A stretch of DNA of 64,000 nt from Bryobacteraceae bacterium (GTDB lineage Bacteria > Acidobacteriota > Terriglobia > Bryobacterales > Bryobacteraceae), in assembly GCA_036498815.1 (NCBI GenBank), contig DASYET010000028.1, forward strand, positions 241 to 64,240, given 5' to 3'. The notes under the pieces were generated by a model that did no database searches, had not been told where the DNA came from, and worked only from the letters and a program-made list of their open reading frames with translations. Position 1 is the first letter of the stretch, and every line of letters starts with the position of its first letter. Shown piece after piece: positions 884 through 30,155 of this stretch. The position numbers were made by a program, and so were the translations under genes.

Positions 884-1384
884 TTGCTACTCTTGGTTCG
901 AGTGCCCCAGAGCTTCGAGGAAATCTTCCTGCCGCATTTCAGCGCGGCCTACAACCTCGCCCGCTGGCTGACCGCTTCCGATTCCGACGCCGAAGATCTC
1001 TGCCACGATGCCTACGTAAAAGCGCTCGCCTCCTTCAAATCCTTCCGAGGCGCAAATCCCAAATCCTGGCTCCTCACCATCGTTCGCAACACCTGTTTCG
1101 ATTGGCTCCGTCAGCGCCGCCCGTCCGCACTCCTCCCCGTCGACGAGGAACTCCCCGCGCCCGGCCCATCTCCCGAAACCCAATATCTCCGTGAGCTCGA
1201 TCGCCACGCGCTCCAATCCGCTCTAGCGCGCCTGCCCGCCGAGTTTCAAGAAGTCCTCATCTTGCGTGAATTCGAAGACCTCTCCTACAAAGAAATCTCC
1301 GACATCGCCGGAGTCCCCCTGGGCACCGTAATGTCCCGTCTCGCCCGAGCGCGTCAGCGCCTCCGCACGGAGTTGAAACCATGA
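884..1384 (+). CDS. ECF (sigma-70 family) RNA polymerase sigma factor
   Basis: Region 2 (DAEDLCHDAYVKAL...NPKSWLLTIVRNTCFDWLRQRR) and region 4 HTH (LSYKEISDIAGVPLGTVMSRLARAR) are present. The start is TTG at 884; GTG at 902 is equally possible. The stop overlaps the next start (ATGA). Confidence 0.9.
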   Translation: MLLLVRVPQSFEEIFLPHFSAAYNLARWLTASDSDAEDLCHDAYVKALASFKSFRGANPKSWLLTIVRNTCFDWLRQRRPSALLPVDEELPAPGPSPETQYLRELDRHALQSALARLPAEFQEVLILREFEDLSYKEISDIAGVPLGTVMSRLARARQRLRTELKP

Positions 1385-2109
1385 CCTGCCCCGAAGTGAG
1401 AAAACAGCTCCAAGCCTTTCACGACGGCCAACTCGATCGCGCCGCCTCCGATGCCGTCTCCGAGCATCTGAGCCAGTGCCCCGAATGCATGTCAATCCTG
1501 GAAAGCGAAGAAAAGCTCTCGCGAGCCCTCCGCCAACCCGAGCTTCGCTTCACCCCGCCCTCCGGAGCCGAAGCCCGCCTGCGCCAGAGGCTCAAGCCGC
1601 AGCGAGCAACTCCAGCGTCGCGATGGTGGCTCGCTGCCGCCGCGGCGCTTCTTCTCGTCGGACTCGGCGTCACCTGGATCTCGCTCTCCGTCTCCGCCGA
1701 AAAGCAACTCGCGCTCGAAACGGTCAGCGATCATATCCGGTCATTGCAAGCCAACCATCTCACCGATGTTGTCTCCACCGACAACCACACCGTGAAACCG
1801 TGGTTCAACGGCAAGATCGACTTCTCGCCGACCGTCCAAGACCTCGCCGCCCGAGGCTACGAACTCTCGGGCGGCCGCCTCGACTATCTCGGAGGCCGCC
1901 CCGTCGCCGCGCTCGTTTATCGCCGCCGATTGCACGTCATCAACGTCTTCACTTGGCCCGCCGCCGAAAGGGATCGGGGCCCGTCCCAGGTCCTGACCCA
2001 ACAAGGCTACAATGTCGTCCGCTGGTCGCACGCGGGAATGACCTACTGGGCCGTCTCCGATCTAGCCTCCCCTGAGCTCTTGGATCTCGCCAACTTACTT
2101 CGGGAATAA
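1381..2109 (+). CDS. membrane-spanning zinc-finger (zf-HC2/ZAS) anti-sigma factor
   Basis: The N-terminus has C3-x25-H29-x3-C33-x2-C36 (HLSQCPEC). There is one TM segment (WWLAAAAALLLVGLGVTWISL). It is translationally coupled to the upstream ECF sigma gene. Confidence 0.85.
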   Translation: MTCPEVRKQLQAFHDGQLDRAASDAVSEHLSQCPECMSILESEEKLSRALRQPELRFTPPSGAEARLRQRLKPQRATPASRWWLAAAAALLLVGLGVTWISLSVSAEKQLALETVSDHIRSLQANHLTDVVSTDNHTVKPWFNGKIDFSPTVQDLAARGYELSGGRLDYLGGRPVAALVYRRRLHVINVFTWPAAERDRGPSQVLTQQGYNVVRWSHAGMTYWAVSDLASPELLDLANLLRE

Positions 2110-2150
2110 ATTCGCGCCCGCCTCGTCTCGCATGGTGAAAGGGATTCACC

Positions 2151-3059
2151 ATGAAAAAAATAGATCGACGCGGATTCTTGGAATGCATGGCCTGGGCAGG
2201 CTCCGGAGTTCTCTGGCAGATGGGGCAGGGCACTGCCCGAGGCCAAGTCCTGAGCGGACACACGCCCATGGGCTCCGGACTCAACTTCGTTCAGATCAGC
2301 GACAGCCACATCGGCTTCAGCGCTCCTGCCAACATGGACGTCACCGGCACCTTGCAGGAGACCGTCAATTTGATCAACGGTCTCGCCGCGCCACCCGCAT
2401 TCCTGCTGCACACCGGCGACATCACGCATCTTTCAAAGCCCGAAGAATTCGACACCGCCGCCGAGATCCTCAAGTCCTCGAAAGCCGAAATCTTCTACGT
2501 CCCCGGCGAGCATGACGTCATGGGTGCGGACTCGCACGCCTACCTCGACCGCTACGGCAAATCCACGCAAGGCGACGGTTGGTATAGCTTCGATCACAGC
2601 GGCGTGCATTTTGTGGGACTCGTCAACGTGAAGCTCCGCTCCGCCGGAGGCTTTGGCCGCCTGGGGCCCGATCAAATCGAGTGGCTCCGCCGCGATCTCG
2701 AAGCGAAATCCGCCAGTACCCCCATCGTTGTTTTTGCCCACATGCCTCTCTGGACCGCCTACGAGCAGTGGGGCTGGGGCACCAGCGACGCCATGGAGGC
2801 GATGCAGCTTCTGCGCCGCTTCGGCTCCGTCAGCGTCCTCAACGGGCACATCCACCAGACCATGCAGAAGGTGGAAGGCAACCTCTTCTTCCACACGGCG
2901 ATGTCGACGGCCTTCCCGCAGCCTGCTCCCGGAGCCGCCTCCGGACCCGGCCCCATGGTAGTCCCCGCAGACCGGCTCAGGAGCCTCCTGGGCCTGACCA
3001 AAGTCGGCTATGTCGCCGGAAAATCTCCGTTGGCCGTGGTCGACCAACCGCTGGGTTAG
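2151..3059 (+). CDS. Tat-signal metallophosphoesterase (calcineurin-like phosphoesterase)
   Basis: Twin-arginine signal (DRRGFLECMAWAGSG). Metallophosphoesterase motifs are present: ISDSH, HTGDITH, PGEHD and NGHIH. Confidence 0.85.
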   Translation: MKKIDRRGFLECMAWAGSGVLWQMGQGTARGQVLSGHTPMGSGLNFVQISDSHIGFSAPANMDVTGTLQETVNLINGLAAPPAFLLHTGDITHLSKPEEFDTAAEILKSSKAEIFYVPGEHDVMGADSHAYLDRYGKSTQGDGWYSFDHSGVHFVGLVNVKLRSAGGFGRLGPDQIEWLRRDLEAKSASTPIVVFAHMPLWTAYEQWGWGTSDAMEAMQLLRRFGSVSVLNGHIHQTMQKVEGNLFFHTAMSTAFPQPAPGAASGPGPMVVPADRLRSLLGLTKVGYVAGKSPLAVVDQPLG

Positions 3060-3742: not shown

Positions 3743-3772
3743 CTTGCGATGGCCCGGTACTGGTAGGTATAA
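3743..3772 (+). promoter_or_regulatory. candidate sigma-70 promoter for the HTH regulator gene
   Basis: TTGCGA (3743-3748), an 18-nt spacer, then a perfect TATAAT (3767-3772). This is about 90 nt upstream of the ATG at 3864. Confidence 0.4.
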
Positions 3773-3863
3773 TCCTTACCCAGAGAGTCCGAACTTTCAA
3801 CCCTCTCAATCCGATGCCGGCATCCTCAAGGTCTCTAGGACGCCGCCCCCCAAGTCAACCATC

Positions 3864-4661
3864 ATGGAGGAAGCCGCACAGAAACTCAAGCGCGTCCGGG
3901 AGAGGCTCGGACTAAAGTACCGCCACGTGGAGGAAGCCACCACGCGGATCGCGAACGCGCACGAGAACGACGAATATCTGGTGTCGCTCAGCCGCCTTTC
4001 GGATATTGAAAACAAAGGTACAATGCCGACCTTGTACCGTTTGTATTCGCTGTGCGCGGTTTACCGGCTGGATTTTAAAGAGGCACTCTCCTGGTACGGC
4101 ATCAAGCTGGAACAGCTGCCGATCGACGCGACGCTAGTCGAACTTCCCCGTACACAACTTGTGGGGATTCAAGCAAACGAGGACACGGAAGTCCACTTGC
4201 CGATTTCGCTCGAGCCCGGGATCGACCTGGCGAAAACCGAATTCCTCAGCCGGATGATCCAACGGTGGGGCAAGTTACCTCTAGTACTACTCCAGAATAT
4301 GGATGTAAAGAACCACCTCTACGGATTGATCGGCACCGAGGACTGGTTCATGTTTCCGATCATCGCGCCGGGATCGCTGGTGGTGATCGACGACAGCCGG
4401 CGTAAGATCATCAATACGGGCTGGATCACGGAGTTCGAGCGGCCGATCTATTTTGTAGAACACCGGAATGGTTATTGTTGCGCGTGGTGCTCCCAGAAGG
4501 AAGACCGCATTACGCTGCATCCGCATCCGTCCTCGCAGTACGATCCTGAGTTCTATACGTACCCCAGCGAGATTGAAATTATCGGGCAGGTCACTCAAGT
4601 CGCGATGACGCTCGATCCGGCGGTCCGCCGGAGACCGCGCCAGGAAAACTCCGGGCTTTAG
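3864..4661 (+). CDS. XRE-family HTH transcriptional regulator with LexA/CI-like (peptidase S24-like) C-terminal domain
   Basis: HTH_XRE region: LKRVRERLGLKYRHVEEATTRIAN...SRLSDIENKGTMPTLYRLYSLCAVYRLDF. The C-terminal pattern APGSLVVIDDS...ITLHPHP...IEIIGQVTQV matches the S24 beta-fold. I chose the start at M74 of ORF 3645..4661 because the upstream part overlaps the ubiX 5' end. Confidence 0.8.
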   Translation: MEEAAQKLKRVRERLGLKYRHVEEATTRIANAHENDEYLVSLSRLSDIENKGTMPTLYRLYSLCAVYRLDFKEALSWYGIKLEQLPIDATLVELPRTQLVGIQANEDTEVHLPISLEPGIDLAKTEFLSRMIQRWGKLPLVLLQNMDVKNHLYGLIGTEDWFMFPIIAPGSLVVIDDSRRKIINTGWITEFERPIYFVEHRNGYCCAWCSQKEDRITLHPHPSSQYDPEFYTYPSEIEIIGQVTQVAMTLDPAVRRRPRQENSGL

Positions 4662-4762
4662 TACTGCTTTTCCAGTTTCCGAAAGCGTTGTCTCAGGATT
4701 AAGAAAACTCCTCCAGGCGCTATACCGTACCAGGTGTACGGTTCTAGACCCAGGAGGTTTCA

Positions 4763-4957
4763 ATGTTTAAATTTGTGTCCCGGCTCGGGGCATTTCTCCT
4801 TACCGCTATCGCGGTCGACTTGGCGCACGCCGATGTTGGCATTCCGTGTCCCACTTGCTACTGGGACGGAGCTTGCGTGGCTCAGTTCGGTGCGGGATGG
4901 TATTACTGCGGAACGGACGACGACGGCTGGTACTGGTGCTGCCCGGTGGGCGGCTAA
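4763..4957 (+). CDS. small secreted Cys/Trp/Tyr-rich mini-protein (64-aa precursor)
   Basis: AGGAGG lies 5 nt upstream of the ATG. Signal-peptide-like N-terminus MFKFVSRLGAFLLTAIAVDLAHA. The predicted 41-aa mature part has 6 Cys, 4 Trp, 4 Tyr and 8 Gly (DVGIPCPTCYWDGACVAQFGAGWYYCGTDDDGWYWCCPVGG). Confidence 0.65.
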   Translation: MFKFVSRLGAFLLTAIAVDLAHADVGIPCPTCYWDGACVAQFGAGWYYCGTDDDGWYWCCPVGG

Positions 4958-5036
4958 AGCATGTTGGGCGCGGAGTGCCGTCTACCGCGCCCTTCCCTTG
5001 AAAAATCCAGATTCCCTTCGAGAAAGAAGTCATTTC

Positions 5037-5579
5037 ATGAAAAACAATCGTGTAGCAACTATTTTTGCGCTGGCCCTGGTGGGTGCGCTGATCGCATACT
5101 TTCCGCCGGGCCCGTTCAGCTGGCGCACGTTCTTGCTGGATCCGTCGTCGAACGAAGCAAAGCTTATGTTCTTGGCGAAGGTGTATCTGGCGCCCGCCCT
5201 CTTGTCCATGGTGGCGGTGGTGGGTTTCCGGGTGCAGATGGGATTGTCGATGACCGGCGCGGCGCCGAGCGCCGTGTTTCCGCTGGCGCTGCTGGCATCC
5301 GGCGCGATGATGGCCGGGTTACGTTCGATGTCCGGGGGCGTGGGCGGAGTTCCCGGTTACGCGGTGGGGATGTCGCTAGGCTACACGCTGATGGCGAATA
5401 TCTACGGGTTCAAGAAGACGGAGCAGACGGTGTTCGGGAGGCCGGTTCTGAAGATCGTGTGGCGGAAGCAGGCGCTGGCAAATGCGACGCCGGTGGCGCA
5501 AACCGGCCCAGGGGTGGGTCCGGCCTCCTCGGCGGTGGGTCAAGCTCCCGCGGTGGGTCAAGCTTCCGCGGCAGCGTAA
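5037..5579 (+). CDS. polytopic membrane protein, unknown function
   Basis: 180 aa from M102 of ORF 4734..5579, with about 4 hydrophobic segments (VATIFALALVGALIAYF, LAPALLSMVAVVGF, VFPLALLASGAMMAGL, AVGMSLGYTLMANIYGF). The tail is low-complexity A/G/P/Q. The upstream part of the ORF is R/T/A-rich and overlaps the peptide gene. Confidence 0.65.
   Translation: MKNNRVATIFALALVGALIAYFPPGPFSWRTFLLDPSSNEAKLMFLAKVYLAPALLSMVAVVGFRVQMGLSMTGAAPSAVFPLALLASGAMMAGLRSMSGGVGGVPGYAVGMSLGYTLMANIYGFKKTEQTVFGRPVLKIVWRKQALANATPVAQTGPGVGPASSAVGQAPAVGQASAAA
5532..5567 (+). repeat. 18-nt tandem duplication (GCGGTGGGTCAAGCTNCC x2)
   Basis: Two adjacent copies with 1 mismatch, read directly. They encode AVGQAP/AVGQAS in the tail of the membrane protein. 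Confidence 0.9.
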
Positions 5580-5604
5580 CGGCAGGGGAGGCGGCGGCGC
5601 CGGA

Positions 5605-6030
5605 TCAGCACTTCAGGGTTTCCACCAGAATGGCGAATTCCCGGAGGAAGAGCTGTTGTTCCGCATCGCGCGCGGAGGCCGGAAGGTAGCTGCCCGGAAT
5701 CCCGGCCTTGGCCCAATATTCGACCACGGCGCAGGAGGGAGGCTCCACGCTCTCCAGGTATTCCACCAGATCCTGGCGTTTCTGAGCGAGGGGCAATTTG
5801 AGCCATTGCTGGAAGAGCTGGGAATGAGAATCGCCTAAAGCGCGCCGGCTTTCGTCGCGTCCGAAGATCGATCCCAGGCCGTGGTGATTGTAAATGCCGG
5901 AGTTAGGGTCGCGCAGGGAAGCCAGATAAGCGAGGCGGCCGAACAGGCTGGGAATCCGGGACAGCGTGTTCTTGAATAAATCGGCGCTGGCCGACCCCGC
6001 GAGCATTGCTTTGGGCCTGAATTGCGGCAC
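5605..6030 (-). CDS. hypothetical protein (no recognised domain)
   Basis: The C-terminal 133-141 aa of ORF 5605..6498 look protein-like (LFGRLAYLASLRDPNSGIYNHHGLGSIFGRDESRRALGDSHSQLFQQWLKL...). GTG at 6030 is preceded by GAGG 5 nt upstream; ATG at 6006 is the alternative. The rest of the long ORF is R/Q-rich and antisense to the gene at 6094. Confidence 0.55.
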   Translation of the reverse strand: MPQFRPKAMLAGSASADLFKNTLSRIPSLFGRLAYLASLRDPNSGIYNHHGLGSIFGRDESRRALGDSHSQLFQQWLKLPLAQKRQDLVEYLESVEPPSCAVVEYWAKAGIPGSYLPASARDAEQQLFLREFAILVETLKC

Positions 6031-6093: not shown

Positions 6094-6879
6094 ATGGTAG
6101 ACTTGAGGACACTCTTGAGTCTCTACGAAGCACTCGACCATTGGTTCCAGTACTTGAACCTCGCAGGGGATGTCGCGCTGCTGGCGGCGCTGGCATGGCG
6201 AAAATTGGCGGGCGTCTATCCGGTGCTTATCGTCTATTTCCTGCTGGATCTGTTGGAGGCGGTGGCGGCCTATGGCCTCGGCGAGCAGTACCAGCTTCCC
6301 CTGTACTATTCGTTTCAGGCGCTCAAGTGGGCTCTGGCGTTCTGGTTCGTATTGGATCTGTATGGGCGGATTCTGTCGCCCTATGCGGCGCTGGCCAAGT
6401 TTGGGCGCGGGACGGTGGGGGGCCTGCTGGCCTTGTCGATCGCGGCCTCGGTCCCGACCTTTTTCGTCGAACTCAACCGGCCTTTCGAGCCGGACCATTT
6501 CGGCTTCCTGATGAACCGGTTTGAGCGCATCGCGGATCTGACGATTGCCGTCCTGGTGGTGCTGATGAGCATTTTTCTCATCTGGTACCCGGTTAAAGTG
6601 CGGCGCAACGTGGCGGCGTATATGGCGGGATTTGCCGTGGATTTCAGTGCCCGGGCGCTGGCATTAACCGGCATCGACTGGTGGCGGCAATATTACCGGC
6701 AGATCGATGCGGCGATGCTGGCGGTCGCCTTCGGGTGCATGTTGTTCTGGATTCTGGTGATGCGGCCGGAGGGCGAGGTCCGTACGATGACGGGGCACGG
6801 CTGGAATGAGGACGAGGCCCATCGTTTAAGCCGGCAATTGGACGAGATCAATGACCGGCTGGAACGTCTGTTGCACTAA
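6094..6879 (+). CDS. polytopic membrane protein with C-terminal coiled-coil-like tail, unknown function
   Basis: 261 aa with about 6-7 hydrophobic helices (VYPVLIVYFLLDLLEAVAAYGL, ALKWALAFWFVLDLY, TIAVLVVLMSIFLIWY, AMLAVAFGCMLFWILV). The tail is charged (NEDEAHRLSRQLDEINDRLERLLH). Confidence 0.7.
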   Translation: MVDLRTLLSLYEALDHWFQYLNLAGDVALLAALAWRKLAGVYPVLIVYFLLDLLEAVAAYGLGEQYQLPLYYSFQALKWALAFWFVLDLYGRILSPYAALAKFGRGTVGGLLALSIAASVPTFFVELNRPFEPDHFGFLMNRFERIADLTIAVLVVLMSIFLIWYPVKVRRNVAAYMAGFAVDFSARALALTGIDWWRQYYRQIDAAMLAVAFGCMLFWILVMRPEGEVRTMTGHGWNEDEAHRLSRQLDEINDRLERLLH

Positions 6880-6988: not shown

Positions 6989-7513
6989 ATGACGAACTGG
7001 CTTCCGGTAATCGCGATGAGTGGTGTCGGCGGGATGTTGTTGGGAATGGGGACGCTGTTATGGGTCCGTTTACGCGGGTACCGTCGTGCATCCGCGGGCA
7101 ACTCGGTTCCGCCGGGTGAGTTCGGCGCGGCGCGGCTGGCTCCCTTGGAGCGGTTGATGAGCGGCGACGATCTGGAGTTTCTGCGCGAGTTCTCGGCGTG
7201 CCGTCCGCATTTGGCGGCGCAATGGGAACGGGAGCGGCGGCAGATTTTCCGGCTGTATCTGCGGGAGGCGGCCGCGGAGTTTCAGCGGGTGCATGGCGAA
7301 GCCCGGCAACTGGTGGCGCGCGCCCCCGAAGAGCACGCCGATCTGGTGGGCAAGCTGATGCGGCAACAGGTCACCTTCTGGGTCACGCTCACCAAGATCG
7401 AACTGCATCTGGCTCTGGGCGGGCTGGGACTGGGCGAAATCGACGCGCGCAAGATTGTCGCGCTGATCGAGGTCACGCAGGCCGAGGTGCGGCCGGGGCT
7501 CCGGACGGCTTAG
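6989..7513 (+). CDS. hypothetical single-pass membrane protein with helical cytoplasmic domain
   Basis: 174 aa. N-terminal TM segment (LPVIAMSGVGGMLLGMGTLLWV) followed by an R/E/A-rich helical region. No known motif recognised. Confidence 0.6.
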   Translation: MTNWLPVIAMSGVGGMLLGMGTLLWVRLRGYRRASAGNSVPPGEFGAARLAPLERLMSGDDLEFLREFSACRPHLAAQWERERRQIFRLYLREAAAEFQRVHGEARQLVARAPEEHADLVGKLMRQQVTFWVTLTKIELHLALGGLGLGEIDARKIVALIEVTQAEVRPGLRTA

Positions 7514-29633: not shown

Positions 29634-30155
29634 ATGCTGAAGAAACTCCTGGCTATTACCCTGCTGGCTGCGGCGGCGCTTTCCGCGAAGGAGCCGCGTC
29701 CAGCCTCCACGCTCGGGATCCCGGTGCCGGCGGGAAAGAAGTTCCATTTTCAGGACTACGCGGGCAAGGTGGTCCTGTTCGTGATCTTCTCCACCGAATG
29801 CAAGGATTGCATTGAGGCGCTGAACATGGTGAACACCATCCAGAAGGAGTACGCGCCGCACGGATTCCAGGCGCTTGCCGCGGCGGGCGACGACAACGCA
29901 CAGTATCTGGTGGAACCCTTCGTCCAGCGATATAAACTGACGTTCCCGGTCGGCTTCTTGACCCGAGATGAAATGATCAAGATCGGAGACATCCCCTTGG
30001 ATAAGCGTCCCACGGCTCCGATTTTCCTGTTCATTGACAAGCGCGGCATCGTACGGTTTCAGTATTACGGCGATCATCCGTTCTTTAAGACCGCGAACGG
30101 CACGACGCACTCCATTATCGAAGGACTGCTGAAGGAACCGGGCGGAAAGAAGTGA
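29634..30155 (+). CDS. periplasmic thiol-disulfide oxidoreductase (TlpA/redoxin-like)
   Basis: Signal peptide, then a thioredoxin fold with a CKDC active-site CxxC in the context VVLFVIFSTECKDC. Confidence 0.8.
   Translation: MLKKLLAITLLAAAALSAKEPRPASTLGIPVPAGKKFHFQDYAGKVVLFVIFSTECKDCIEALNMVNTIQKEYAPHGFQALAAAGDDNAQYLVEPFVQRYKLTFPVGFLTRDEMIKIGDIPLDKRPTAPIFLFIDKRGIVRFQYYGDHPFFKTANGTTHSIIEGLLKEPGGKK

What the first reader, a model, noticed from the sequence alone, without database searches (positions are those of the whole stretch)
4763..4957. SD-led 64-aa precursor of a secreted, six-cysteine, Trp/Tyr/Gly-rich mini-protein
This is a short ORF with one of the best ribosome-binding sites in the window (AGGAGG-N5-ATG). 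It has a classical signal peptide ending AHA|D. The predicted 41-aa mature peptide is DVGIPCPTCYWDGACVAQFGAGWYYCGTDDDGWYWCCPVGG. Its spacing is C-x2-C-x5-C-x10-C-x9-CC, with 8 aromatic residues and an acidic DDD loop. I do not recognise this as any described bacteriocin, RiPP precursor or defensin family; the cis-defensin CxxxC/CxC spacing is absent. A 7-bp hairpin (ACCGTAC-CAGGT-GTACGGT, 4725-4743) lies in its 5' leader. A disulfide-knotted antimicrobial, signalling or metal-binding peptide is plausible.
Basis: partly seen in the sequence, partly recalled or inferred. Interest (0 to 1): 0.7.

Follow-up and report, generated by a model that had tools for sequence, protein, structure and literature searches.

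The report
Exported six-cysteine mini-protein, Bryobacterales peptide family
The 64-codon ORF is a real, conserved gene for an exported, acidic, aromatic-rich six-cysteine mini-protein with no known relatives; it is an enlarged member of an undescribed family of small exported peptides found across a whole order of soil Acidobacteria, and its function is still unknown.

Summary
The ORF at 4763-4957 is real. It has AGGAGG-N5-ATG. Homologues give dN/dS of 0.11-0.24 with synonymous sites near saturation. All six Cys are invariant in 24 protein clusters (34-83% identity). The N-terminus fits a Sec signal peptide. The 41-aa mature part is anionic, with no Lys or Arg in 23 of 24 members. AlphaFold predicts a beta-alpha-beta-beta fold (pLDDT 85.6). 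Pfam, NCBIfam, PADLOC, PDB sequences and Foldseek give no significant match.

A 4-TM membrane gene (5037-5579) always follows the peptide gene and occurs nowhere else. A conserved GC hairpin separates the two genes.

The window comes from a Bryobacteraceae MAG. Most other Bryobacterales keep the flanking genes: a CI/LexA-like regulator and three unknown proteins. In place of the six-Cys gene they carry short peptide genes of 34-62 aa, often in tandem or with several cores. These encode a signal peptide plus a P-x-P-x-C-x-P-C core. This core is homologous to the N-terminus of the six-Cys peptide (hhalign 97.7%).

Both peptide types sit about 105 nt downstream of the same palindromic box, TGTTCYGA-N4-CGAAAA.

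A cationic antimicrobial or defensin role is disfavoured. The best guess, at low confidence, is an exported ligand for its membrane partner. Metal or redox binding and toxin-immunity remain rivals.

The parts
3864..4661 (+). Regulator ('reg', 265 aa). It has an N-terminal XRE-type HTH and a C-terminal LexA/CI (S24)-like domain that appears to lack the Ser/Lys dyad. It carries the conserved motif EHRxG[YF]xCxWC...PHP.
   Evidence: Weak Pfam hits to HTH_31/HTH_3 and Peptidase_S24, all below the curated cut-offs. The start at MEEAAQKLK is inferred from homologues. Identity to homologues is 64-93%. 138 relatives were found in GTDB Bryobacterales genomes. The C-x-W-C motif is conserved across the order.
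3744..3773 (+). Sigma-70-like promoter match (TTGCGA-18-TATAAT) upstream of reg.
   Evidence: Consensus scan only, 10 of 12 positions matched; shuffled sequence gives 0.9 such matches on average. Weak evidence.
4668..4685 (+). Conserved palindromic box TTTTCCAGTTTCCGAAAG. The family consensus is TGTTCYGA-N4-CGAAAA. It is the putative operator or activator site for the peptide gene.
   Evidence: Found 95-129 nt (mode 105-107) upstream of the peptide ATG in 53 loci of both peptide types. It aligns without gaps.
4723..4728 (+). -10-like hexamer TACCGT. T1, A2 and T6 are invariant or nearly so in 24 aligned loci. It starts 37 nt after the box.
   Evidence: Invariant and nearly invariant columns T62, A63 and T67 of alignment A9. 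No conserved -35 element is present. The promoter role is inferred.
4724..4742 (+).
   Evidence: Sequence. Both arms are unchanged in the 5 closest loci, with no covariation. The repeat is degraded or replaced in distant loci. The left arm overlaps the -10-like element.
4752..4757 (+). Shine-Dalgarno AGGAGG, 5 nt before the ATG.
   Evidence: GGAGG-type sites occupy the same position in homologous loci.
4763..4831 (+). Signal peptide, residues 1-23 (MFKFVSRLGAFLLTAIAVDLAHA).
   Evidence: n/h/c regions and the -3/-1 rule hold. dN/dS of this part is 0.09-0.48. His at -2 occurs in 23 of 24 members and Asp at +1 in 22 of 24.
4832..4957 (+). Mature 41-aa mini-protein DVGIPCPTCYWDGACVAQFGAGWYYCGTDDDGWYWCCPVGG, plus the stop codon.
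   Evidence: Six invariant Cys. Anionic: 5 D/E and 0 K/R. AlphaFold2 model with pLDDT 85.6 and topology beta(4-6)-alpha(12-19)-beta(23-28)-beta(34-38).
4966..4992 (+). GC-rich hairpin GGGCGCGGAG...CCGCGCCC between the peptide gene and the membrane-protein gene.
   Evidence: Present in all six-Cys loci. 4 of 10 base pairs show compensatory changes. Median folding z-score is -3.2 in 20 six-Cys loci, against -0.1 after the short-peptide genes.
5037..5579 (+). 'mem': a 180-aa protein that I read as 4-TM, with no Cys and no known family. Motifs I place in periplasmic loops: FPPGPFSW and GVGG[VI]PGY.
   Evidence: Alignment A10. It occurs only next to six-Cys peptides: in L001-L023, and in 14 of 14 metagenome loci that include upstream DNA. 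No Pfam, NCBIfam, PADLOC or PDB hit. The TM count and topology come from reading the sequence, not from a predictor.
5605..6030 (-). 'm141': a conserved protein with no TM segment evident, of unknown family.
   Evidence: HMM match 1.9e-73. Alignment A11. No PDB match. The GTG start is inferred from homologues.
6094..6879 (+). 'p257': a multi-pass membrane protein of unknown family. In other Bryobacterales it lies directly downstream of the short peptide genes.
   Evidence: Alignment A13 with no PDB match.
6989..7513 (+). 'p178': a protein with an N-terminal TM helix, of unknown family. It always follows p257.
   Evidence: Alignment A12 with no PDB match.

Best explanation
SHOWN. The gene at 4763-4957 is real and under purifying selection. 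Its product has a Sec-type signal peptide, so in a diderm acidobacterium it should reach the periplasm. Cleavage after AHA would leave a 41-residue acidic, aromatic-rich mini-protein with six invariant Cys. AlphaFold predicts a beta-alpha-beta-beta fold with no detectable relative. The gene is strictly coupled to a downstream membrane-protein gene ('mem'), which I read as 4-TM, and a conserved GC hairpin lies between them. The peptide gene lies about 95 nt downstream of a palindromic box that precedes the peptide gene in 53 of the related Bryobacterales loci examined. Its N-terminal module (signal peptide plus D-x-P-x-P-C-x-P-C) is homologous to short exported peptides, which are single, tandem or multi-core. 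In other Bryobacterales these short peptides occupy the same regulon next to the same CI/LexA-like regulator.

INFERRED. The regulator binds the palindromic box. The box is centred near -59 relative to a -10-like TACCGT, a position typical of activators. From there it drives strong transcription and translation of the peptide (perfect SD). The hairpin ends or stabilises a short peptide-only transcript, so that much more peptide than 'mem' is made. The exported peptide, oxidised to disulfides in the periplasm, then acts as an extracytoplasmic ligand of its co-evolved membrane partner 'mem'. The short relatives would act in the same way on p257/p178. On this reading the system is a peptide-based envelope or cell-cell signalling module rather than a membrane-disrupting antimicrobial.

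Confidence. About 0.9 for the 'shown' layer. About 0.35 for the ligand or signalling function. The figure below refers to the function.
For: Real gene: dN/dS 0.11-0.24 and third-position excess. 24 homologous clusters with invariant Cys.

Export: signal-peptide features are conserved.

Expression signals: perfect SD, rare in this window. Conserved box and -10-like element. Hairpin with compensatory changes, specific to six-Cys loci.

Partner: 'mem' is found only with the six-Cys peptide. Peptide and 'mem' diverge at the same rate: 67/50/42% against 67/41/41% identity.

Superfamily: hhalign 97.7%, E 1.3e-12, between the six-Cys family and the short family. The two types are mutually exclusive at the locus.

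Features of the short family that resemble a pheromone or ligand:
- a conserved P-x-C-x-P-C scaffold with variable residues around it;
- tandem copies that keep an identical mature peptide while synonymous sites diverge (pS 0.16-0.47 between such copies);
- multi-core precursors.

The regulator has a CI/LexA-like architecture, suited to palindromic operators.
Against: - No receptor, kinase, transporter or protease domain is recognisable in any neighbour.
- No route across the outer membrane is evident.
- Binding of the regulator to the box, the transcription start, signal-peptide cleavage, the disulfides and any peptide-'mem' contact are all untested.
- The core motif is conserved across an order, unlike the rapidly diversifying pherotypes of many quorum-sensing peptides.
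- A CxxC with nearby Asp, Met or His, and a Cys/His cluster in the regulator, fit metal or redox chemistry about as well.
- Only the best of five AlphaFold models is confident (85.6; the others are 61-69).
Confidence: 0.35

Rival explanations
1. Periplasmic metal- or redox-buffering peptide. The CxxC pair, here joined by four more thiols and an Asp-rich loop, binds a soft metal or acts as a sacrificial thiol/disulfide couple. The regulator would sense the same stress through its own E-H...C-x-W-C...P-H-P cluster.
For: - CxxC is the only invariant feature of the short family.
- The peptides are acidic.
- Met or His often lie just before the first Cys, as in DMPIPC, HDPIPHC and EVEMPEC. The repeat IIPPPMCHPTGCPPEEADK is reiterated at least six times in L053.
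- Tandem gene arrays and internal repeats raise dosage. From general knowledge, that is typical of stoichiometric binders such as metallothionein arrays.
- The regulator has an order-wide conserved C-x-W-C plus His residues.
Against: - No efflux pump, P-type ATPase, CDF/RND transporter or oxidoreductase is in the cassette.
- 'mem' has no Cys and no His/Met-rich motif, so the strict peptide-'mem' coupling is left unexplained.
- One variant (L026) has three repeats with no Cys at all.
- In the oxidising periplasm six Cys are more likely to form disulfides than to stay as free thiolates (inference).
Confidence: 0.25
2. Sec-dependent bacteriocin-like toxin with a dedicated immunity protein ('mem'). 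The added C-terminal domain would make the peptide harmful, so a membrane immunity protein must accompany it.
For: - A small exported peptide gene is followed by a small multi-TM protein gene, with an attenuating hairpin between them and a regulator upstream.
- 'mem' never occurs without the peptide.
- The predicted beta-alpha-beta-beta topology is that of defensin-like peptides.
Against: - The mature peptide is anionic, with no K/R in 23 of 24 members.
- No double-glycine leader, ABC exporter or outer-membrane export system is present.
- The gene is single-copy at a fixed chromosomal position with extended synteny (ubiX, reg, m141, p257, p178, Fer4, SLT, Mrp), so it is inherited vertically rather than mobile.
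- dN/dS is about 0.15 and the divergence rate equals that of the neighbours.
- No PADLOC or bacteriocin family hit.
Confidence: 0.12
3. Glycan- or envelope-binding mini-lectin, similar in kind to hevein. An exposed Trp/Tyr ladder on a disulfide-braced hairpin would bind polysaccharide (EPS, chitin or cellulose) or peptidoglycan in or outside the envelope.
For: - 7-13 aromatic residues in 40-53 aa. The conserved hairpin FGxGWYYCG-x4-GWxWCC resembles a Trp zipper.
- From memory, it resembles the hevein motif [FYW]G[FYW]CG...[FYW]C.
Against: - No member matches Pfam Chitin_bind_1 or any carbohydrate-binding module, even at E up to 10.
- No Foldseek match to hevein-type folds.
- The order of the Cys residues differs from hevein.
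- This reading does not explain the 'mem' coupling or the homology to 14-aa peptides.
Confidence: 0.08
4. Spurious ORF, or the coding signal belongs to an overlapping frame or the opposite strand.
For: Overlapping ORFs exist mechanically: 4734-5579 (+) and 4806-5033 (-).
Against: - Codon-position bias and dN/dS are specific to the 4763 frame.
- The ORF keeps its length (63-79 aa) and all its Cys down to 34% identity.
- The SD and start codon are conserved.
Confidence: 0.01

Closest known systems
Cis-defensins / CS-alpha-beta peptides (plant defensins, scorpion toxins, and, from memory, bacterial defensin-like peptides)
   Same: Small, signal-peptide-led and six-Cys, with a predicted beta-alpha-beta-beta topology. 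Such proteins appear among the top, non-significant, Foldseek rows: 1bk8, 8f2f, 1cn2, 2mz0.
   Different: There is no CxxxC in the helix (one Cys only). There is a CC pair rather than CxC in the last strand. The peptide is anionic rather than cationic. Foldseek gives E of 5 or more and probability of 0.08 or less. There is no Pfam hit.
Hevein-like / CBM18 chitin-binding peptides
   Same: About 40 aa and rich in Cys, Gly and aromatic residues. An aromatic-x-C-G motif lies next to an acidic turn (resemblance recalled from memory).
   Different: No PF00187 hit in any of 24 members at E up to 10. The Cys order differs: the CC pair is C-terminal here, whereas in hevein (as I recall) it precedes the aromatic motif. 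No fold match.
Class II (Sec-dependent or leader-dependent) bacteriocin plus immunity-protein cassettes
   Same: Peptide gene, then a small multi-TM protein gene, with an adjacent regulator and an intercistronic hairpin.
   Different: The host is a diderm and no dedicated exporter is present. The peptide is anionic. The locus is conserved, vertically inherited and under purifying selection.
Regulator-pheromone cassettes of Firmicutes (RRNPP type: PlcR-PapR, Rgg-SHP, NprR-NprX; phage AimR-AimP)
   Same: An XRE-type HTH regulator with a small signal-peptide-bearing peptide gene immediately downstream. The short relatives are 13-25-aa exported peptides, sometimes encoded by several copies.
   Different: The regulator's C-terminal domain is LexA/CI (S24)-like, not TPR. 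The organism is a diderm acidobacterium. No Opp-type importer is evident. Here the mature product is a folded 41-aa disulfide protein with a membrane partner.
MerP-MerT and CopZ-type MxCxxC metal handling
   Same: An exported small CxxC protein is followed by a small membrane protein, with a regulator adjacent.
   Different: No HMA fold or Pfam hit. 'mem' has no Cys pair. The spacing of Met relative to CxxC differs. No other metal-resistance genes are present.
Multi-core peptide precursors (yeast alpha-factor, cyanobactins and similar); relevant to the short relatives only
   Same: A conserved core repeated 2 to 7 or more times in one precursor, or in tandem genes.
   Different: No processing protease or modifying enzyme is recognisable nearby. 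The adjacent flavoprotein is UbiX, not a LanD-type decarboxylase.

Membership tests
Sec (SPase I) signal peptide | Positively charged n-region, hydrophobic h-region of about 10 residues, small residues at -3 and -1 | tested here: met
   1-3 K/R in the first 8 residues; maximum 10-residue Kyte-Doolittle mean 1.8-2.9; A/G at -1 in 24 of 24; A/V/G/T at -3 in 23 of 24. SignalP was not run and cleavage is not shown.
Cis-defensin / CS-alpha-beta | CxxxC in the helix, disulfide-bonded to CxC in the C-terminal strand | tested here: not met
   The predicted helix (mature residues 12-19) holds only C15. The last strand has C36-C37 adjacent.
Cis-defensin / CS-alpha-beta | Significant structural similarity to known members | tested here: not met
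   Against the PDB, the best Foldseek match to a defensin or toxin has E 5.3-8.5, probability 0.08 or less, and TM about 0.3-0.5.
Cis-defensin / cationic antimicrobial peptide | Net positive charge | tested here: not met
   0 K/R in 23 of 24 members and 3-8 D/E in all.
Hevein / CBM18 (Chitin_bind_1) | Match to the PF00187 profile | tested here: not met
   No hit for any of 24 mature sequences at E up to 10.
Inhibitor cystine knot (knottin) | I-IV, II-V, III-VI disulfide connectivity with a threaded ring | not testable with these tools
The short relatives keep only Cys I and II. By inference this suggests a local I-II pair, which would be incompatible with a knot.
Class II bacteriocin | Double-glycine leader with a cognate ABC exporter, or demonstrated antimicrobial activity | tested here: not met
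   The leader is Sec-type and ends in AHA. No ABC transporter lies in the conserved block. Activity cannot be tested here.
RiPP precursor | Recognisable modifying enzyme(s) co-located with the precursor | tested here: not met
   The neighbours have no Pfam, NCBIfam or PDB match. The only enzyme-like neighbour is UbiX (NF004685, 235 bits against a cut-off of 188).
RRNPP regulator-pheromone system | Regulator with HTH plus TPR peptide-binding domain | tested here: not met
   The regulator shows HTH_31/HTH_3 and a weak Peptidase_S24-like C-terminal half. No TPR is present.
LexA/CI-type self-cleaving repressor (the regulator) | Catalytic Ser and Lys in the S24 domain | tested here: inconclusive
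   The Pfam S24 match covers only profile positions 45-115 at E 0.052. Aligning by eye, I read the GxSM position as GTEDWFMF and the VKRL position as FVEH. That suggests loss of the dyad, but no structure-based alignment was possible.
Bryobacterales exported P-x-C-x-P-C peptide family (defined here, undescribed) | Signal peptide plus P-x-P-x-C-x-P-C core; located about 105 nt downstream of the TGTTCYGA-N4-CGAAAA box; in the reg/m141/p257/p178 neighbourhood | tested here: met
   hhalign 97.7%, E 1.3e-12. Box at window 4668-4685, 94 nt before the ATG. All four neighbours are present in the window.

The most novel reading that the evidence does not exclude
The window peptide is the folded, six-Cys end-member of a previously undescribed peptide system that spans the order Bryobacterales (Acidobacteriota). 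The system consists of:
- a CI/LexA-like regulator with a Cys/His cluster;
- a conserved palindromic operator;
- Sec-exported P-x-C-x-P-C peptides, made from single genes, tandem genes or multi-core precursors;
- dedicated membrane proteins of unknown fold.
On this reading the system works as peptide-based signalling, or as a new peptide redox or metal cofactor system, in diderm soil bacteria. In one subclade the peptide gained a 30-residue disulfide-braced aromatic domain together with a new 4-TM partner.
Probability: 0.3. Interest if true: 0.85.

Novelty: new variant of a known kind. Interest (0 to 1): 0.62.

Why it matters
Acidobacteria are among the most abundant soil bacteria, yet I know of almost nothing about how they communicate or manage their envelope, and three full-text searches of the paper library turned up nothing describing this locus. 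This locus gives a concrete, testable system conserved across an order:
- an unannotated regulator, with 138 relatives found among the GTDB species genomes scanned;
- a sharply defined DNA box;
- highly expressed-looking exported peptides, ranging from about 14-aa CxxC peptides to a 41-aa mini-protein with a predicted fold that has no detectable relative.

If the peptides are signals, this would be a rare case of Sec-exported peptide signalling in a diderm phylum. If they bind metals or buffer redox, they would be a new class of periplasmic thiol peptides. In either case the six-Cys domain is a compact disulfide-rich scaffold of possible interest for peptide engineering. None of the cassette proteins has a Pfam, NCBIfam or PDB relative.

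Tried and rejected
- Family searches. Pfam, NCBIfam and PADLOC on the peptide and all neighbours gave nothing for the peptide, mem, m141, p257 or p178.
- PDB sequence-profile searches for the peptide (full-length and mature), reg, mem, m141, p178 and p257 gave only chance hits with E above 0.2.
- Foldseek of two AlphaFold models against PDB and BFVD gave no hit with E at or below 0.001. Defensin and toxin rows are not significant.
- Hevein/CBM18 idea, recalled from memory: no PF00187 hit.
- LanD/EpiD-type flavoprotein as a RiPP enzyme: rejected, because the gene is UbiX.
- 'mem' as a duplicate of p257 or p178: rejected (hhalign probability 0.1%).
- Known RNA element in the leader or intergenic region: no Rfam hit at E up to 1.
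- A weak hit of the short-family HMM elsewhere in the window (29634-30155) looks like a thioredoxin-like exported protein, judged by eye from its signal peptide and a C-K-D-C motif. The match rests on the signal peptide only, so I treat it as unrelated.
- The search for related loci with the peptide alignment failed because no stretch was conserved enough. The regulator and 'mem' alignments were used instead.
- Three literature searches found nothing describing the locus.
- Disulfide connectivity could not be derived because model coordinates are not exposed.
Full report
OBSERVATION. AGGAGG lies at 4752-4757, then 5 nt, then the ATG. Only three ORFs of at least 40 aa in the 64-kb window have a perfect AGGAGG 4-9 nt before their start. 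The Cys spacing C-x2-C-x5-C-x10-C-x9-CC is correct. There are 9 aromatic residues, not 8.

IS IT A GENE? A search of 5.8 billion proteins found 7 homologues besides the ORF's own product (55-83% identity), all 63-64 aa. The identical protein is annotated as hypothetical in a Bryobacteraceae MAG. A profile search of 1.84 billion cluster representatives and a second profile search extended the family to 24 clusters of 63-79 aa, down to 34% identity. All six Cys, a Gly and the YC motif are conserved.

In six syntenic orthologues of equal length, pairwise dN/dS is 0.11-0.24 with pS of 0.42-0.69. Differences by codon position are 217, 160 and 453. This frame therefore encodes a protein under purifying selection. 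The overlapping ORFs listed are mechanical.

THE PRODUCT. The N-terminal 23-26 residues have 1-3 K/R, a hydrophobic core, A/G at -1 (24 of 24) and a small residue at -3 (23 of 24). This fits a Sec/SPase I signal peptide. Cleavage is inferred and SignalP was not available. Unusually, the signal region is as constrained as the mature part. His at -2 occurs in 23 of 24 members and Asp at +1 in 22 of 24.

The mature peptides have no K/R in 23 of 24 members, 3-8 D/E, and 7-13 aromatic residues. AlphaFold2 on the mature alignment gave pLDDT 85.6 for the best model (the other four gave 61-69). The topology is beta(4-6)-alpha(12-19)-beta(23-28)-beta(34-38). The full-length model agrees.

Foldseek found nothing significant in PDB or BFVD. 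Defensins and scorpion toxins appear only at E of 5-8 and probability of 0.08 or less. Pfam, NCBIfam, PADLOC and PDB sequence profiles gave no hit.

CONTEXT. Every homologous contig has the same order:
- ubiX on the minus strand (identified by NF004685, 235 bits);
- an HTH regulator of about 263 aa ('reg');
- the peptide gene;
- a membrane protein of about 165 aa ('mem');
- a 141-aa protein on the minus strand ('m141');
- a 257-aa membrane protein ('p257');
- a 178-aa protein ('p178').
Fer4, a permease, SLT and Mrp/ParA genes follow. All are present in the window. This is a vertically inherited chromosomal block, not a mobile cassette.

Identity between the window and L018, L017 and L012 is as follows:
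- reg: 85, 68, 64%
- peptide: 67, 50, 42%
- mem: 67, 41, 41%
- m141: 77, 62, 57%
- p257: 55, 32, 32%
- p178: 61, 39, 38%
The peptide therefore does not evolve unusually fast.

'reg' has weak HTH_31/HTH_3 hits and a weak S24 hit over the C-terminal half only. This gives it a CI/LexA-like architecture. Reading the alignment by eye, the Ser/Lys dyad appears to have been replaced. An E-H-R-x-G-[YF]-x-C-x-W-C...P-H-P motif is conserved across the order.

CIS ELEMENTS. A GC-rich hairpin follows the stop codon directly (window 4966-4992) in all six-Cys loci. Four of its 10 pairs show compensatory changes. The median folding z-score is -3.2 in 20 loci. Its U-tract is poor, so I read it as an attenuator or a 3'-stabiliser that keeps peptide output well above 'mem' output (inference).

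Upstream, two ungapped conserved blocks exist. The first is the palindromic box TGTTCYGA-N4-CGAAAA (window 4668-4685, with a degenerate left half). The second, starting 37 nt after the box, is an invariant T-A-N3-T (window 4723-4728, TACCGT). No conserved -35 is present. If TACCGT is the -10, the box is centred near -59, a position typical of activators (inference).

It is unchanged only in the closest relatives and shows no covariation. Rfam finds nothing in 4500-5200.

THE WIDER FAMILY. This is the key new result. I scanned one genome per GTDB species with the regulator profile. This found 138 relatives, and the best 80 are all Bryobacterales or Terriglobia MAGs. Only four of these loci (L019-L021, L023) have the six-Cys peptide, and only those four have 'mem'.

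In most of the others the order is reg, then m141 (minus strand), then one to four small genes, then p257 and p178. The small genes encode a Sec-type signal peptide followed by a core such as HDPIPECWPCPFVK, DWHDPIPHCFPCPYSK or EVEMPECYPCGSN. The invariant residues are P-x-C-x-P-C.

Further variants are multi-core precursors:
- three copies of PSC[YF]PCDAS;
- two copies of LDPLPDCYPCRPGSGGGNK;
- at least six copies of IIPPPMCHPTGCPPEEADK;
- three copies of ESPIPDC[FY]PC;
- one Cys-free form with three copies of SPIPDPGNYGN.

In all, 62 of the 80 loci show a peptide gene, and several of the remainder are truncated contigs. These genes are also under purifying selection: pN/pS is 0.04-0.54 and differences by codon position are 42, 32 and 190. 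Tandem copies keep an identical mature peptide while their signal peptides and synonymous sites diverge.

Profile-profile comparison of the six-Cys family with the short family gives 97.7% probability and E 1.3e-12, across the signal peptide and the P-x-P-C-x-P-C core. The signal peptides contribute to this score. Both types lie at the same distance (mode 105-107 nt) downstream of the same box. They are mutually exclusive at a locus.

The window peptide is therefore the short module plus an added domain of about 30 residues and four Cys (helix plus WYY/WYW hairpin), acquired together with 'mem'. A metagenome scan with 'mem' found 16 loci. All 14 that include upstream DNA have a related Cys-rich peptide immediately upstream. 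One of them (L106) is divergent and shows no evident signal peptide. A last database search found 82 further clusters of short peptides, none named by any source beyond 'hypothetical protein' and none with a Pfam domain. One lies on a 7.3-Mb contig with the same gene neighbourhood.

MECHANISM. Shown:
- a real gene;
- export-type N-terminus;
- a conserved Cys framework;
- obligate pairing with 'mem';
- conserved box, -10-like element, SD and hairpin;
- membership of an order-wide peptide family next to a conserved regulator.

Inferred: the regulator binds the box; a strong peptide-only transcript is made; the signal peptide is cleaved; disulfides form in the periplasm.

Function is open. I favour an exported ligand for the co-evolving membrane partner, that is, an envelope or cell-cell signalling module (about 0.35). 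The reasons are the strict gain of a new membrane protein together with the new domain, and the pattern in the short family of a conserved scaffold with variable flanks, in several copies or cores.

A metal or redox peptide (about 0.25) fits several observations: the invariant CxxC, the acidity, the frequent Met or His before the first Cys, the repeats that raise dosage, and the regulator's Cys/His cluster. It does not explain 'mem', which has no Cys, or the absence of any metal-resistance gene.

Toxin plus immunity (about 0.12) explains the pairing. It fits poorly with the negative charge, vertical inheritance, purifying selection and the lack of an exporter.

A hevein-like glycan binder (about 0.08) rests only on amino-acid composition.

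COMPARISON AND NOVELTY. The peptide fails the defining features of cis-defensins (CxxxC/CxC, positive charge, fold match), hevein (profile match), class II bacteriocins (leader and exporter), RiPPs (modifying enzymes) and RRNPP systems (TPR regulator). It resembles them only in general layout. I could find no description of the peptide, its short relatives or any cassette protein, and no curated family covers them.

I rate it a new variant of a known general kind: small exported Cys peptides with a regulator and membrane partners. There is a real chance (about 0.3) that the whole system is a new kind of peptide signalling or peptide cofactor module in Acidobacteria.

Noticed in passing
L024-L098 (for example L058 5398-5514; L033 5393-5774; L090 5400-5932): Short exported peptide genes of 34-62 aa, often 2-4 tandem copies, with a P-x-C-x-P-C core. 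They lie between m141 and p257 in most Bryobacterales genomes and are unannotated in every source.
   Followed up: yes
L053 5326-5841; L077 5357-5926; L066 5383-5592; L095 5395-5616; L097 5220-5483: Multi-core precursors with the Cys core repeated, each starting about 101-108 nt after the conserved box. Examples: at least 6 copies of IIPPPMCHPTGCPPEEADK, and 3 copies of PSCYPCDAS. They could be read either as processed polypeptides or as metal-binding repeats.
   Followed up: partly
L026 5378-5572: A variant at the same position with three repeats of QSPIPDPGNYGN and no cysteine at all. Cys is therefore not universal in the family.
   Followed up: no
L106 313-477: Upstream of a 'mem' homologue lies a divergent five-Cys peptide (…GWLYYLCGSGSENGYDWVECCPY). 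It has no evident signal peptide and no regulator on the contig. It may be a pseudogene, a mis-called start or a different arrangement.
   Followed up: no
L031 4824-5972: Duplicated module: two boxes (4824 and 5721), two peptide genes (4924 and 5826) and a partial second copy of the regulator (5273-5677).
   Followed up: no
L005 2513-3121: A second p257-like paralogue, split into two ORFs, lies between p257 and p178 in one close relative of the window.
   Followed up: no
window 3864-4661 (regulator, C-terminal third) and all reg homologues: Motif E-H-R-x-G-[YF]-x-C-x-W-C-(9-11 residues)-P-H-P-[AS]-S, conserved across the order and often followed by another Cys. It may be a Zn or redox site in a LexA/CI-like domain that seems to lack the catalytic Ser/Lys.
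   Followed up: partly
window 4975-4983 and equivalent hairpin loops in L001-L023 and L100-L110: The loop and distal part of the post-peptide hairpin keep a GCCG[TC]CG-like sequence across distant loci. This is more conservation than a plain terminator loop would need.
   Followed up: no
window 884-3059: An ECF sigma factor (884-1384), a zf-HC2 anti-sigma factor (1381-2109) and a metallophosphoesterase (2151-3059) lie between a TPR gene and ubiX. In L012 and L017 a prephenate dehydratase gene occupies that place instead.
   Followed up: no
window 29634-30155: An exported protein with a C-K-D-C motif that looks thioredoxin-like by eye (no family search was run). It gave a weak hit to the short-peptide HMM through its signal peptide only.
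   Followed up: partly
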